A stretch of 64,000 bases of DNA, from assembly GCF_964194025.1 (NCBI RefSeq), contig NC_134468.1, positions 37,944,001-38,008,000 on the forward strand. The letters are read 5' to 3'. Made by a program: the position numbers. The DNA comes from Convolutriloba macropyga (taxonomy: Eukaryota). Numbering within the stretch: the stretch's first letter is position 1; each line of letters begins with the position of its first letter. Of the stretch, positions 39,001-54,000 are shown one piece after another.

Positions 39001-42000
39001 GAGTCTAAAGGGCATTGAACTGAATTGGAGGTTTCACTGCTACTTGGCTTTGGTGAATCTGACCCTAAGTTATGGTCTGAGAACTTTTGCTCGCTCAGTT
39101 TTTTCCAACTATCAAAATCATGGCACACTCGCTGCTCACAATCTTTGTTTGAATCTTCAGCTGCGGCTTTTCGCCCCATTTGACCTGAAAAAATATCTAT
39201 GGTTTTTACAAACCTTAGTTACTTTCCGCCTTAAGTCTGGTATTTAAAAAATGTGCCTACTAAGGCGAACAACTAATGCTCCTAATTCAAACTACTCATA
39301 AAATTACATTGACTAAAGTGGCTGTTCATTATCAGCTAGAGTCTTGTCAATTTAAAAATTACAATATTTTACACTGCTTTTTAAACTAGTTTACTCTACA
39401 CAATATTTACTAAAAATTTCAGATTTTTCAATACACAGAATCTCGCTAAATCGGATAATCGTTTTGTTCCGTCTCAAGCAGTGAAGGAAGGAACTTTGCG
39501 CTAGCCTGCTTTCATTTGTTCAGTAAATTTTGAGACCCCGAAATATTAGGAAATACTTGAGAGGTGGGCACCAGTAACGGAAAACAATGTAAACTTCCAA
39601 AAATGTCTCGATGATAAAAAAAAACAAGCTCTTTGTTTACTACTGGTTCCTCATATTCAATGATTTTGGTTGAAAAACTCATCAAAATTCCATTCAAAAT
39701 TGTTATCAGCGCAAATGTCTAACAAGGACGCTCGGTAATATGCGTTCGCACATAACGTTATGACCCCACTCATCCACTCATTAACTTAAGACCCCACTCA
39801 TTAACTTACGGGAAATATTTGGTTGAAAAAAAATGAAACCAAGATAATAAAAACAATTTTATCAAGTGAACACCCAATTTTGTCCCAAAAAATGAGATTC
39901 TGAATTCAAATTCTGTCCTATTCAAATCAAACTTTACAGACTTACTGTCTTTCAAGTACCATTGCTCGACAAGTATCTAGCTTTAGCTACCTCTATTTAC
40001 AATCAATTAGGTTCGCTCAATTCCTTTAGTCGAAACAATGCTGAACCTACAGCGTTCATTCTTTAATATTCTTCAGATGGGCGCGTCAGGAGATGGTCTT
40101 ACTTAAATCGCGTGAGACGATGATATAAGAAAATGAACAAAAAAGCATGAAACTTATCAAATTAAAATATTATATAGGTTCACTTAATATTATCCACACG
40201 CCAGTAATGGGATTAAGTAGTAAAACTGCACAAAGAACAACACGCAAAGCAAAACACGAAAGCTGAAAAAGTTTACAAAAACACAGAGTCAAAGCTATGA
40301 AAATCAAAAGCCATTAAATAAAAACATTACATAGGTTCTTTTGGTCTTAATTAGTTTTACTGTTTAACTAACAGGGTAGCGAAAAGAACCAGAGAAGGGA
40401 GCAACACTCAAAGTATAAAATATTTATTGCAACCAGATAGTGCCATAGTCCTAAAAAACTTATGCTGTCCATTGATCAATTCAAAAATTGTATATATACT
40501 AATAGAACAAACCTACCATTCTTTAGAAGCAATTGAAACAAATTGAGTAAAAAAGTGAAAACAGAAGTCAAATAGCCGCGCGTGAAAAAACTTCGCCCTG
40601 AAACCAATAGCTTATTCAAACACCAATTTCTTGCTTCACTTCAAAAAATTTGAAAACATAGCTGACAGATTGCCAGAAAGTAACAGCAATAGCTTCCTAG
40701 CTCTGCAGTCTCAAAAAGATGGAAAACAGACCAAAAGAGAAAGTTTTTTTAATGCTGAGCTGTTGTATTTTAAGAATATGTTTAATGTAATGTTGATTCT
40801 ATTAGCTGCCCTTAAATACCACTAATTTAAAGTGACATAATCATTTGACCTTATCTCTTTGAATTAAAGTAAAGAAAAGTCAATTTCAGAGTGAGGAAGT
40901 CATTTTTGACAGTGAAGTAAGTCACGTGCGACTAAAAATTTAATCACGCGGATGTACAAATAAAAACAAATAAAGACTCCACTAAGAGCGAAAAATGACG
41001 TCATGAACGTAATTCAGCTGAATGAACGAATGAAAAAAAAGTAGATCTGAAGTGGTTACTGTGACGTCCATATGGTCGTAACAAAAAACCTGTTGAAGAA
41101 ATAATAACAACCAAGAGAAGTCCAAAAATAGCCTCAGCTATCACTTTGCGGCTATTAATTACTCCCTGTGTCTTTCAGTAACTATTCAGGCGGGAGTGAA
41201 ATCCTTACTTAAAATTTACTTCTCATTGAAATTAGAAATTTGAACAAATGTTTCAAAAAAAGCACAACTTTGATAAGACTACAAAAGACGCAAAAATAGA
41301 ACAAAATTAGGTAACATCTCTTCAAAATAGGAGAAAACTGAAAAAACAGCAGTTCCAAATCGCCTTGCTAGATGATAGAAGTTAAATTAACCCACCACGT
41401 AGTTTATGAATTCTGTTTGCGCAGATTTAAGTGAGTGCATTGGAAAAGTAGTAGCAGTTTCCGCTAAAAAAACAATTTGGTTCTGGTTGTCATGAGATAA
41501 ATTGTCAAGATAAATTATTAACAAAACACTTCAACCTCGATAACTCCCAGAAAATATTCTAAAAAGCTTTCAAAACAATCTACACTTGTTCTCATGATAC
41601 CACTCAACACTACAATAAAATATCGATGCGCCAAATTGACTGAACAAAAACAAACAGGTGAGCATACAATTTCAAGCTTAGTGAGTAAGAGATTCAAAGG
41701 ATTTCTGCTGAACGGCGAATCAATAATAACAACAAAAAAATGAGCTTAGAGGTAAAAATGAGGGGGTGTAGATTTGCCAGAACAAAATCGGGAAGGGAAG
41801 TAAGAACCGCCCTTAACACCGTGAATTTATGTCTCCTAAAAACAGATTCGGTGAATCGCCTACTTGAAGCTTTACCTGTTTATTGAGTTTCCAAGGACGA
41901 AAAGTCAAACAGTTAGAAGGAAAAACGATCAAACAAAAAACTGGTAATACGAAAAACAACATTAAAAAAGTTCAGCCGGACAAATGTAATTGCTACAAAC

Positions 42001-51000: not shown

Positions 51001-54000
51001 AAAAAGCAGAATTCAGACATACGAAACAATGAACCATTTTGCAAAAAAGTGGTCAAAAAATATTTAAGACTGCATTTATGAAAAAAATTTATCTGTTTTT
51101 TCAAAAACTTAACACCAAAAAAGATTGAATTTTTATTGAAACGAAATTAAAGTCCCTCATGTTCCCCAAAATACTATTTCTAGTAATTAAAAGCAAAATA
51201 CAAACAAAAAACTGAAAAAAATTGGCAAAAAACTACGAAAATCGGATTAGCAAATGTACAATTTTATGAAACAAAATTACATCGAGGTAGAAAGAGGCAT
51301 TGAGTATATGAATTATCAAAGGGAAGTTGCCATATTAACTGATTTTTGACAAAAAACAGCTAAAAGATCCAAAAATGAAGAAATTAATAGAAAAAAAAAG
51401 CCAAAAATTAACTAAAAAATCAAGAAATATGTGCCAATTTCGCATTTGAAACGCAATTTCAGGCTATGCAAAATACTGTGCTATCAATTTCCGGGGTTTA
51501 CATTTCCACATAGCATCGATTAAAAATTATTTCTACAAAAAACCAAATTACAAGCAAAAAAACTAGGCCACTTAGACGAAAAACGACTAAAAACGGTTAT
51601 CTATATGTGTCATTCAGTCAAAAACTACTTTTCAATGTCAAAAGTCATCCACTAAACGCAGCGCATGATCAAAAAACTTCTCTCGCTCAGAAAAAATTAG
51701 TTCACACTGCAATTTTACTCGCTTTCGCTTTTAGGTCAAAACATCGTCTGAACGAATAGTACTTCCGGTAAAAAAAAAAACCTTAAGAAAACCAATACTC
51801 CTCTTCGAGTCGTAAAAAAACCAAGAGAAGGCCAATAATAGCCCCAGCTATCGCTGTGCGGCTATTAGTAAAAGATCGATACCGAACAAGGCGTTCCTGA
51901 GAACTAAATCTTGAGAACTACAAAACACTTCAAAAAACAACCTCATTTCTGACAATCTACATTTTAGAAATCCATAAATTGTTGTCTTGTAGCATTTGGT
52001 GGACCCCGGTTTCTCCTGGGCGAGTTATCTTCGTCTCTCGGCTGGAATCTGTTGCTTCTGCCTGCTCTTCCTGATTCCGTTTGCAGATCATGCGCCGCTA
52101 AATGGAGAATTTCACTGGGATCTCTTAACTTCTTCCTATCATCTGATTTCCGCCTTCGGGTAAATAGGTTTCTGTCATTTGGTTCGTCGTATCGTCTATC
52201 GTAGTTCCTCCGATTGATCAATGACGCACCTGCCCACGGTTTCTCACCGGGGGTTAGAATCTGATCCTGTTTTGGATGATCCGAGACCTCGTACTGGAAA
52301 GTGTCGTAATGTTTTAACACGTCATTCAGATCCCGTTTTAGCCTGTGCTCGTAGCTAACATAGTCCTCTTGCAGTTCTCGAATTCTTCGCTGCAGCTGGT
52401 TGATGTAGTTCATAGTCTTTCGTTTGTGATTCTCAATCTGCTGCTGAAATACATGTTCAGTTGCATGTCGTATTCCACCTAGACTATCGTATTGTTTGTT
52501 GTTAAGAACCGGAAGCATTCCATCGTTAGGGTCATATGTCATTGTTTCTGGCCGAAGCGGCACGTTGTCCAACACTTGAGCTGTGGTAAGCTGCTTGACA
52601 GCATTTGCATATCCTCGTTCAGTTTGTATTGGGTTGTCATGCATGTACAGATACTGGAGATTCGTCAGAGCCTGAAAAACAACTTTGGGATGATGTTGCT
52701 ACAGCTGTTCTTAGACAAATGTCTTATTTTTCTCAGTCACCCACATCAAAAAAATTTTATCTTAAGATTAAAAAATAGTTTTTAAAAGCACTGTTCTGGA
52801 TCAAAAATGCATGCAAAAAATTTCAACATCATAACATCACCTCGATATCAACATTATCCGCTATGTCAAAACAATAGATTAATGTCAGAATACAAAATGA
52901 CAACCATTGATTGTTTCCTGTCTTTTCTATTAGGCGCTCAACCACCAGAACAAAGGAAGATAAGAACGGAAAATGACTAAAAAAGAATTAGTAGACAGAA
53001 ACCAATCTGGAATGAATGATTTTAGATGAGATAGGAAATCACGCACAGAACGAAAAAATCCATGCTTTGCACTTTGCAATGGAACACGTAAATAACGCTA
53101 ACCTTTGCAGAAAACAAAATTTGCAAAAAAAACGGGGAAGGCTAAATACAGAGTGAGTAAACAGATCTTAAATTAATCAGTTTCCAGGCATCTCAGCATC
53201 CAATTGTTTGCCTTGTTTGTAAAATATTACGAGTGTAGACTTTTTGAAGTCAAGACAGTCTATTTCTGCGTTCACGATTCCTTATCCAATGTTTCCATTT
53301 TCTTGTTCTTCAGAAAGATTCTGTATTTCGGTAATTTGAAAGCAAACACAGTCAGAGATTACAAAAGCAGATTTTCAGCTGGCCAGCTTCTTGAAAACAA
53401 TAGCCAAAGGACTTGCATGACTCCAAATTGCACTTCGTTTTGCAAAATTTTCATTAAATATTTAATTATCAATGAGATCATGAAAAAGATAAATCGTGGA
53501 CTGTATGTTAAAATTAGCAGACAAAGATTCGATAGTAATTCATCGAAATATAGAGTTCTTTGGATGCTAAAAAATGGCATTGAACTATAACAACTATTTT
53601 TATTGAAGATGTTAGAACAATGAAAGAAGCAAACATAAAAGAATTTTGCCATACATTTTTAAATCTTTATATAATTGGTAACCAGGACTTGCTAGACAGA
53701 CTCTTTCATGCTCATTAGAGCAAAATTTTTGATTGCTACATAGTTTCTTCAATAGTTAACCTCTGCTAGATAGAATAACTTTTCATTTTTAAACATTTTT
53801 TTCACTGTTGCAACTAAAATTGCACAACTCTTCCTCCGTGAGGCGCCTAAAAACAAAACAGATAGGTTTAATGGCGACCTTGTAGTGTCGCAAATTGTAA
53901 TCGATTTGTATTTTCTTGCTACTATTTTGTGATAACGGCACTACGAACAATTTATTATTATCATTTTCAGAATTTTAAACGAGAATTCCTCTTCATGAAA

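What the first reader, a model, noticed from the sequence alone, without database searches (positions are those of the whole stretch)
40970..51867. Complex duplication-inversion built from the adjacent family E element
Seen: each 3.67-kb unit consists of 1.7 kb of flank plus an inverted copy of the neighbouring element E (50019-51813) that spans it end to end. Within it, 42667-43679 is the reverse complement of ~51813-50800, 43680-44038 is forward ~50681-51037, and ~44032-44636 is the reverse complement of ~50630-50020. Junctions show microhomology (ACGA at 42667; AACATTT at ~44032), and the inverted copy begins at the same point in the host B element where the intact E is inserted. Inference: template switching at the element's termini, possibly during rolling-circle transposition, followed by tandem amplification. 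These are the only wrong-way elements found in the window.
Basis: partly seen in the sequence, partly recalled or inferred. Interest (0 to 1): 0.65.

Follow-up and report, generated by a model that had tools for sequence, protein, structure and literature searches.

The report
Inverted rolling-circle transposon copy, flank amplified
A small non-coding mobile element of the Helitron-like kind sits beside two rearranged, back-to-front copies of itself, each joined to a repeat of the same 1.7 kb of neighbouring DNA, which looks like the scar of a copying accident at the element's own ends.

Summary
The layout is F1 40969-42666, inverted copy 42667-44636, F2 44637-46333, inverted copy 46334-48310, F3 48311-50011, a 9-nt spacer, then element E at 50021-51813.

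Each inverted copy is RC(51813-50800) + forward(50681-51039) + RC(50630-50020). This creates a 240-bp palindrome and loses about 44-50 nt.

E and its host element B show the structural hallmarks of group-2 Helitron-like elements (Helentron/Helitron2). These are 10-11-nt terminal inverted repeats, a 3' stem-loop after the right repeat, and insertion in a T run (against passages read). No transposase gene lies in the window.

The outer breakpoints fall on E's 5' terminal base and one base past its 3' end. Two of the four junctions carry microhomology (4 and 7 nt); two are blunt.

Copies differ by real substitutions in a two-age pattern, about 0.5% and about 0.2%.

Best reading: serial strand-switching during replication that started or stalled at E's termini, followed by unequal exchange. 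The mechanism is inferred.

No reads or other genome copies could be examined, so an assembly artefact is unlikely but not excluded.

The parts
40969..42666 (+). F1, first copy of the 1.7-kb flank. It comprises the 3' part of element B1 (to 41156), about 1.07 kb found nowhere else in the window, and the 5' part of element B2 (from 42228).
   Evidence: It carries 5 private substitutions and 2 private indels, all in its first 1124 nt.
42667..44636 (+). Inverted, rearranged copy 1 of E, with the element's sense strand on +. It is made of RC(51813-50800) at 42667-43679, forward 50681-51039 at 43680-44038, RC(50630-50021) to 44635, and one flank base T at 44636.
   Evidence: The 5' terminal repeat is at 42667-42677, the right repeat at 44603-44613, a perfect 6-bp stem-loop at 44616-44630, and CTATG at 44631-44635.
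43439..44038 (.). Palindrome inside copy 1. The arms are 43439-43679 and 43799-44038 (about 240 nt, 99.6%) with a 119-nt spacer. The same structure lies at 47107-47706 in copy 2.
   Evidence: Both arms carry the same alleles at the sites equivalent to 50903 and 51034, and these differ from E.
44637..46333 (+). F2, second copy of the flank.
   Evidence: It is identical to F3 over the first 1124 nt. Its three private substitutions (46029, 46041, 46155) all match the B-family consensus.
46334..48310 (+). Inverted, rearranged copy 2 of E, with the same four junctions as copy 1.
   Evidence: It differs from copy 1 by 3 substitutions and 2 indels, one of them 6 nt long.
48311..50011 (+). F3, third copy of the flank, in its ancestral continuity with the spacer and E. 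It ends in ACGA (50008-50011).
   Evidence: It has no private differences.
50012..50020 (+). Spacer AATAAAAAA between the point where the flank is left in units 1 and 2 and the start of E. It is part of the A-run target in B2.
50021..51813 (-). Element E, 1793 bp and non-coding, with its sense strand on -. The 5' terminal repeat runs 51813->51803, the right repeat is at 50043-50053, the stem-loop (one mismatch, at 50039) is at 50026-50040, and the 3' end CTATG is 50025->50021. It is nested in B2.
   Evidence: The empty site is the related B copy at 28143-28641, with an A run at 28588-28595.
51814..51866 (-). Remainder of host element B2, whose other part is 49569-50020. It ends in GCGGCTATT at 51858-51866.

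Best explanation
What it is: E is a non-autonomous Helitron-like element of group 2 (Helentron/Helitron2 type), nested in another such element (B2). It lies in the 12.7-kb spacer between two minus-strand genes.

Step 1 (older): one nascent DNA strand made four template jumps. It copied the flank F up to ...CATGACGA, 9 nt short of E's 3' end. It then jumped 1.8 kb ahead onto the opposite strand exactly at E's 5' terminal bases, using the ACGA microhomology, and copied back. On the way it made a smaller nested loop of the same kind, with a blunt junction at 50800/50681 and the AACATTT microhomology at 51039/50636. It ran to one base past E's 3' end, then re-engaged 1.7 kb upstream at 40969 and copied F, the spacer and E again. 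The product is U-F-(inverted E)-F-E.

I take the most likely setting to be the replication fork that a RepHel transposase sets up when it nicks the element's 5' end. In that fork only the stretch between the two termini is exposed as single strands.

Step 2 (younger): unequal exchange between flank copies duplicated the 3.67-kb unit.

Shown: the structure, the junctions, the element class by its hallmarks, the coincidence of breakpoints with termini, and the two age classes.

Inferred: the order of the jumps, the involvement of a transposase, and unequal exchange as the second step.
For: - All segments and junctions are as described.
- Segment c (50800-51039) is present twice in each copy, so copying rather than cut-and-rejoin is required.
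- The outer and inner events have the same geometry: leave, land ahead on the other strand with microhomology (4 nt, then 7 nt), copy back to within 9 or 44 nt of the departure point, then make a blunt re-entry.
- Microhomology is above chance: P = 0.030 for 4 nt and 0.0015 for 7 nt.
- The outer breakpoints are E's 5' terminal base 51813 and 50020, one base past the 3' end. E's ends are fixed independently by the empty site in the B copy at 28143-28641.
- Element class: terminal repeats, a stem-loop directly after the right repeat, CTATG, and T runs on both sides. Stems differ between families but still pair, and the B subfamilies change both repeats together. This matches the HLE2 description in PMC11417382 (passages).
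- PMC5876387 (passages) proposes that a nick at the left end sets up a fork, with the leading strand restoring the donor and the lagging strand synthesised on the displaced strand.
- The duplicated flank lies on E's 3' side, which is the read-through side (PMC4778049 abstract).
- Two age classes. F1 vs F3 shows 7 events and E vs the copies 11-12, about 0.4-0.7%. F2 vs F3 shows 3 events and copy 1 vs copy 2 shows 5, about 0.2%.
Against: - Two of the four junctions are blunt.
- Once 4-nt pairing is required, landing on the terminal TCGT is only 1 of 3 such sites inside E, and 1 of 19 up to 54000. The 5'-end coincidence is therefore weaker than it first looks.
- A structure-induced stall at E's 3' hairpin could explain the 3'-side coincidence without any transposase.
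- No RepHel domain was found in 47 of 49 ORFs of >=85 aa. The 2 unscanned ORFs are unit-2 duplicates.
- The flank next to the inverted copy's 5' end is G, not T, so this is not a canonical insertion.
- No terminator-like hairpin lies at either boundary of F.
- The age contrast rests on few events, about 18 against 8. F2's three private changes need an extra gene-conversion step.
- No reads, no second haplotype and no other E copy were available.
Confidence: 0.45

Rival explanations
1. Host-only replication or repair error (FoSTeS/MMBIR type). A normal fork stalled at the hairpin and inverted-repeat structure at E's 3' end. The nascent strand then switched templates several times, and the unit was later duplicated. 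No transposase took part.
For: The same junction evidence applies. Copying back to near the departure point is expected from fork geometry alone. Given the need for TCGT, landing on the terminal site is 1 of 3 within E. Template switching around DNA transposons is described for animals in PMC8277862 (passages).
Against: It has to treat the exact 5'-terminal landing as luck. It also gives no reason for the copy to end at the 3' end plus 1 base rather than at the departure point 9 nt further on.
Confidence: 0.25
2. Transposition-based route. E together with its 3' flank F was mobilised by read-through of the 3' end as a circle. E became inverted during circle replication, and the circle (or a dimer) integrated into the chromosomal F by homologous recombination. 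This would give direct F repeats around the inverted copy.
For: The unit equals E plus the flank on its 3' side. The distal boundary 40968|40969 reads T^T on the element's sense strand. End bypass, transduction and circles are documented for Helraiser (PMC4778049 abstract; PMC5876387 passages). Homologous integration of such a circle would produce exactly F-(copy)-F.
Against: E is inverted relative to F and the 9-nt spacer is missing, so strand switching is still needed. Neither F boundary has a terminator-like hairpin. The T^T boundary is weak evidence in an A-rich strand. The route needs more steps. The two units are of younger age than the first event, so a dimer inserted at once is not favoured.
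Confidence: 0.12
3. Assembly or library artefact. Candidates are chimeric inverted reads, or two haplotypes of one unit laid in tandem.
For: Inverted chimeras with microhomology and false tandem duplications are known artefact types (recalled, not from a call). No reads could be examined. Unit-to-unit divergence of 0.2-0.6% could equal heterozygosity.
Against: Both units share all four complex junctions, yet they differ by 11 substitutions and 4 indel events in a coherent mosaic. The palindrome arms share alleles that differ from E. The window's only assembly gap is at 154-298, far from the array.
Confidence: 0.1

Closest known systems
Group-2 Helitron-like elements (HLE2: Helentron/Helitron2) and their non-autonomous derivatives
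   Same: [quoted passage not shown] These features are as described in PMC11417382 (passages) and are seen here.
   Different: The repeats are 10-11 nt, against the 12-16 nt quoted in the paper. No autonomous partner was seen. The family is defined here from one window only.
Helitron 3'-end bypass (transduction), circles and head-to-tail tandem arrays
   Same: The amplified unit is the element plus DNA on its 3' side, and the units are tandem. Sources: PMC4778049 abstract, PMC5876387 passages, PMC2267711 passages.
   Different: The element is inverted relative to the flank it carries. The 3' end does not abut the next 5' end, because 1.7 kb lies between them. The element is also internally rearranged.
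FoSTeS/MMBIR complex rearrangements and the transposon-linked FoSTeST model
   Same: Several templated segments from within 11 kb, in both orientations, with copy gain and microhomology at some junctions and blunt joins at others (PMC8277862 passages).
   Different: Here the outer breakpoints are the exact ends of a rolling-circle element. In that paper's data set, breakpoints were skewed towards the interior of TIR elements.

Membership tests
HLE2 (Helentron/Helitron2-type) non-autonomous element | [quoted passage not shown] | tested here: met
   E's 5' end ACGACTCGAAG (51813->51803) matches the right repeat at 50043-50053 in 10 of 11 positions. B has AATAGCCGCA at both ends, and the 18589 element has G in place of the last A at both ends. 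The length of 10-11 nt is slightly below the 12-16 nt quoted in PMC11417382.
HLE2 (Helentron/Helitron2-type) non-autonomous element | [quoted passage not shown] | tested here: met
   A 5-6-bp stem with a 3-4-nt loop lies 5 nt from the end in the minimum-energy fold of 4 of the 6 ends folded: the inverted E copy, B2, and the ends at 18589 (4 bp predicted) and 27036. E itself has one mismatch in this stem, and the copy at 28143 is degenerate and shows no stem. The stem sequences differ between families but still pair.
HLE2 (Helentron/Helitron2-type) non-autonomous element | Insertion between T and T, without target-site duplication | tested here: inconclusive
   E lies in a T run on its sense strand, and the empty site is seen in the B copy at 28588-28595. 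The run is 8 A in the empty copy but 6+7 A around E. A 5-nt duplication cannot be told apart from run-length drift between copies that are 88% alike.
HLE2 (Helentron/Helitron2-type) non-autonomous element | Shares its termini with an autonomous RepHel-encoding element | not testable with these tools
   No Helitron-related Pfam family was found in the ORFs scanned (13, 42). No genome of this organism was available.
Canonical Helitron (HLE1) | 5' TC, 3' hairpin plus CTRR, insertion between A and T | tested here: not met
   The sense strand starts with ACGA, ends with CTATG, and is flanked by T on both sides.
Helitron 3' transduction (end bypass) | Flank contiguous with the 3' end and in the same orientation as in the donor | tested here: not met
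   In the units, F is joined to the element's 5' end and is inverted relative to the donor arrangement. The 9-nt spacer is absent.
Head-to-tail Helitron tandem array | The 3' end of one copy abuts the 5' end of the next | tested here: not met
   1698 nt of flank separates the 3' end at 44635 from the next 5' end at 46334.
Microhomology-mediated replicative rearrangement (FoSTeS/MMBIR) | Copy gain, nearby templates in both orientations, microhomology at breakpoints | tested here: inconclusive
   Copy gain and nearby templates in both orientations are met. Microhomology is present at 2 of 4 junctions, 4 and 7 nt with P = 0.030 and 0.0015; the other two are blunt.
tRNA-derived SINE | tRNA-like head | tested here: not met
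   Rfam and ARAGORN found only one tRNA-Ile, at 1141-1217, and nothing in E or B.

The most novel reading that the evidence does not exclude
The locus is a natural fossil of a failed rolling-circle transposition. A fork started by RepHel at E's 5' end ran past the 3' terminator and switched between the exposed strands. It copied the displaced transposon strand end to end into the chromosome. This would give in-genome support, for a group-2 element, to the 'replication fork at the donor site' model proposed from Helraiser experiments. It would also show a route by which such elements turn themselves plus flanking DNA into tandem repeats.
Probability: 0.3. Interest if true: 0.6.

Novelty: new variant of a known kind. 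Interest (0 to 1): 0.4.

Why it matters
Helitron-like elements are known to capture and spread host DNA. How their single-strand, replication-coupled mechanism goes wrong in real genomes is documented mostly through read-through captures and head-to-tail arrays.

Here both outer breakpoints of a multi-jump rearrangement sit on the element's own ends. That links a template-switching scar directly to the termini where the transposase nicks. If the structure is confirmed by reads and found beside other copies, it would be a recognisable signature of aberrant rolling-circle transposition. It would also be a source of new tandem repeats.

If it is a one-off, it is simply a well-resolved complex structural variant in non-coding DNA.

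Tried and rejected
- **Other copies of E outside the window.** Two exact-match scans of genome contigs (bacteria and archaea only), using E's 3'-end 25-mer and 5'-end 22-mer, gave 0 hits. No eukaryotic genome collection was on hand.
- **tRNA-derived SINE or a known RNA family.** Rejected.
- **Coding capacity in the array.** There are only short stop-to-stop ORFs. The longest, 43603-43869 (+), 43635-43955 (-) and 50678-50956 (-), have no Pfam match.
- **In-place flip by recombination between E's own inverted repeats.** Rejected. That would leave the outer 22 nt of the 3' end (50021-50042) in place, whereas the whole element including CTATG is inverted.
- **Canonical insertion of a second E copy.** Rejected. 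The 5' flank is G, and what follows the 3' end is the start of F rather than the rest of B.
- **Simple read-through transduction.** Rejected on orientation.
- **New terminator-like hairpin at either F boundary.** None was found; z-scores were -0.89 and -0.10.
- **Tandem Repeats Finder.** It did not report the 3.67-kb array because its longest period is 500.
- **Identifying the host.** It can only be called a metazoan. The ALR-like ORF is 50-66% identical to named vertebrate, mollusc, cnidarian and other animal proteins. The 98% hit is an unnamed record, which I did not trace or fetch.
- **Literature.** Five searches turned up no report of an inverted, internally rearranged Helitron-like copy separated from its parent by a duplicated flank. 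That is not proof of absence.
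Full report
**Setting**

The window is AT-rich (31-42% G+C) and its + strand is A-rich nearly throughout. It holds one run of N at 154-298, which I left alone.

The long ORFs with recognisable domains all lie on the minus strand:

| ORF | Domain |
|---|---|
| 38679-39218 | Erv1/ALR |
| 19852-20406 | TPR |
| 54078-55169 | LRR |
| 61189-62022 | ThiF |

The ALR-like ORF is 50-66% identical to named proteins of vertebrates, molluscs, cnidarians and other animals. 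It is 98% identical to one unnamed record, which I did not trace. So this is an unidentified metazoan, not human.

The 244-aa ORF at 51964-52698 (minus) begins with a leucine-rich-repeat-like stretch by eye, although Pfam found nothing in it, and it ends in a stop at 51964. It may be a terminal piece of the LRR gene; this was not tested. On that reading the array sits in the spacer between that gene's 3' end and the ALR ORF, whose first ATG is near 39180. The array holds no ORF with a Pfam match.

**The observation**

| Part | Coordinates |
|---|---|
| U (upstream) | to 40968 |
| F1 | 40969-42666 |
| Inverted copy 1 | 42667-44636 |
| F2 | 44637-46333 |
| Inverted copy 2 | 46334-48310 |
| F3 | 48311-50011 |
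| Spacer AATAAAAAA | 50012-50020 |
| E | 50021-51813 |
| Rest of host element B2 | 51814-51866 |

Each inverted copy is RC(51813-50800) + forward(50681-51039) + RC(50630-50020). Three consequences follow:

- Segment 50800-51039 is present in both orientations, forming palindrome arms of about 240 nt with a 119-nt spacer.
- Segment 50681-50799 is present only in the un-inverted sense.
- About 44-50 nt (50631/50637-50680) are lost.

Because one segment is present twice, the copy was made by synthesis and not by cutting and rejoining.

**Junctions**

| Junction | Position | Microhomology |
|---|---|---|
| J1, flank to copy | 42666\|42667 | ACGA, 4 nt |
| J2 | 43679\|43680 | none (blunt) |
| J3 | 44038\|44039 | AACATTT, 7 nt (5 nt with E's present allele at 51034) |
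| J4, copy to next flank | 44636\|44637 | none (blunt) |

Among 200,000 random junctions from the same region, P(>=4 nt) = 0.030 and P(>=7 nt) = 0.0015.

A post-hoc remark on J4. The first six bases of F (AATAAA) equal the first six of the spacer. J4 could therefore hide a short turn-around at E's 3' end. I do not count this as evidence.

**What E is**

Many repeats in the window begin, on the + strand, with an A run followed by CATAGC and a short hairpin. A scan for that motif found 9 on the + strand and 0 on the - strand. Shuffled sequence gave 0.7 per strand. The 9 correspond to 7 independent insertions, because one of them lies in the triplicated flank.

Read on the minus strand, this motif is a 3' end consisting of right repeat, then stem-loop, then CTATG, then a T run.

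- E's minus-strand 5' end (ACGACTCGAAG) is the inverted repeat of the 11 nt just upstream of the stem-loop.
- Family B shows the same plan with a different repeat, and one B relative (18589-19204) changes both repeats together.
- Folding places the stem-loop 5 nt from the end. The stems differ in sequence between families but still pair.

E's boundaries are fixed by an empty site. The B copy at 28143-28641 runs straight through an 8-A run where B2 carries E.

These are the hallmarks given for group-2 Helitron-like elements in PMC11417382. [quoted passage not shown] The repeats here are 10-11 nt.

Canonical Helitron features (5' TC, 3' CTRR, A-T target) are not met. Of the 49 ORFs of >=85 aa, 47 were scanned and none has a Helitron-related domain. 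The other two are unit-2 duplicates of scanned ORFs. Whether a target duplication exists cannot be decided: the A run is 6+7 around E against 8 in a copy that is only 88% alike.

**Termini and breakpoints**

The inverted copy starts on E's 5' terminal base (51813, ambiguous by the 4 nt of ACGA). It ends at 50020, one base beyond E's 3' end.

The flank is left at 50007/50011.

The 5' coincidence is weaker than it first looks. Given a need for TCGT, there are 3 such sites inside E and 19 up to position 54000. Even so, a departure within 13 nt of one end together with a landing on the other end is unlikely without a role for the ends.

The outer event and the inner one have the same shape:

1. 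Leave the template.
2. Land ahead on the other strand with microhomology.
3. Copy back to within 9 or 44 nt of the departure point.
4. Re-enter bluntly on the original polarity.

**History**

The copies differ by real substitutions, not only by homopolymer lengths.

| Comparison | Differences |
|---|---|
| F1 vs F3 | 5 substitutions + 2 indels |
| F1 vs F2 | 8 substitutions + 2 indels |
| F2 vs F3 | 3 substitutions |
| Copy 1 vs copy 2 | 3 substitutions + 2 indels |
| E vs both copies | 9 shared sites |

Two of the nine shared sites lie in the palindromic segment, where both arms agree with each other.

The pattern fits two events. The older one separates F1 from F3 and E from the copies, at about 0.4-0.7%. 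The younger one duplicated [copy + F], at about 0.2%. The contrast rests on about 18 events against 8, so it is suggestive only.

F2's three private changes lie within 126 nt, and all match the consensus of other B copies. This needs a small ectopic conversion or an allelic source.

E's own 3' stem has a mismatch at 50039, while both inverted copies keep a perfect stem.

**Mechanism**

Helraiser work proposes that a nick at the left end sets up a replication fork at the donor. In that model the leading strand restores the donor and lagging synthesis occurs on the displaced strand (PMC5876387, passages). The 3' hairpin acts as terminator, and it can be bypassed with transduction of flanking DNA (PMC4778049, abstract).

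In such a fork only the stretch between the two termini is single-stranded. A strand switch there would give an inverted copy bounded by the termini. The duplicated flank lies on E's 3' side, which is the read-through side.

I therefore favour strand switching in a transposase-started fork (0.45) over the alternatives:

| Explanation | Confidence | Main weakness |
|---|---|---|
| Strand switching in a transposase-started fork | 0.45 | transposase role is inferred only |
| Host-only stall-and-switch | 0.25 | treats the exact terminal landing as luck |
| Circle with transduced flank, integrated by homology | 0.12 | still needs an inversion; no terminator-like hairpin at either F boundary |
| Assembly artefact | 0.10 | the coherent substitution mosaic argues against it, but it cannot be tested without reads |

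Template switching around DNA transposons in animals has been described (PMC8277862, passages). There, breakpoints were skewed towards element interiors. Head-to-tail Helitron pairs are known (PMC2267711, passages). My five literature searches found no case like this one, which is not proof that none exists.

**What stayed unchecked**

- Reads and read depth.
- The other haplotype.
- Any other copy of E. The only scans possible were of bacterial and archaeal genomes, with 0 hits.
- Supplementary files of the papers, which were closed and were not needed for any claim made here.

Noticed in passing
window 13132-51813: All recognisable elements of this class point the same way. There are 7 independent strict matches, plus degenerate ones at 13132, 15142 and 28143. 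Their sense strand is the minus strand, which is also the strand of every gene with a recognised domain, and the + strand is A-rich throughout. For 7 of 7 the two-sided binomial P is 0.016. This could reflect transcription, replication direction (as for bacterial single-strand transposons, PMC5371812 passages) or selection.
   Followed up: partly
window 50039 vs 44617 and 48291: The parental element E has a mismatch in its 3' terminator stem, whereas both inverted copies keep a perfect 6-bp stem. On this criterion the derived copies look more competent for mobilisation than the parent.
   Followed up: partly
window 46029, 46041, 46155: Three substitutions private to F2 lie within 126 nt, and all restore the B-family consensus. 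This suggests a short ectopic gene conversion from another B copy, or an allelic source.
   Followed up: partly
window 36042-36740 and 37290-38043: A second direct duplication (84-89% identity, about 1.27 kb apart) spans an E-type 5' end (CTTCGAGTCGT at 36414-36424) next to G-rich repeats. The second copy lacks that end and has about 72 extra nt at the matching position.
   Followed up: partly
window 19445-19461: Another E-type terminal motif (CTCCTCTTCGAGTCG) is followed by a partial repeat of itself, just downstream of a B-like element (18589-19204).
   Followed up: no
window 57615-59488: A tandem repeat with a 749-nt period and about 2.5 copies at 92-96% identity. Each unit starts after an A run.
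   Followed up: no
window 1141-1217; 299-625 and 26052-26363: A tRNA-Ile (AAT) gene lies near the window start. A 327-nt repeat (89% identity) directly follows the N run and recurs at 26 kb.
   Followed up: no
window 38679-39218 (minus): The ALR/Erv1-like gene reads as a single uninterrupted ORF. The protein set holds one 98% identical and one 75% identical unnamed protein, which may be an allele and a paralogue. I did not pursue these because the records are unnamed.
   Followed up: no
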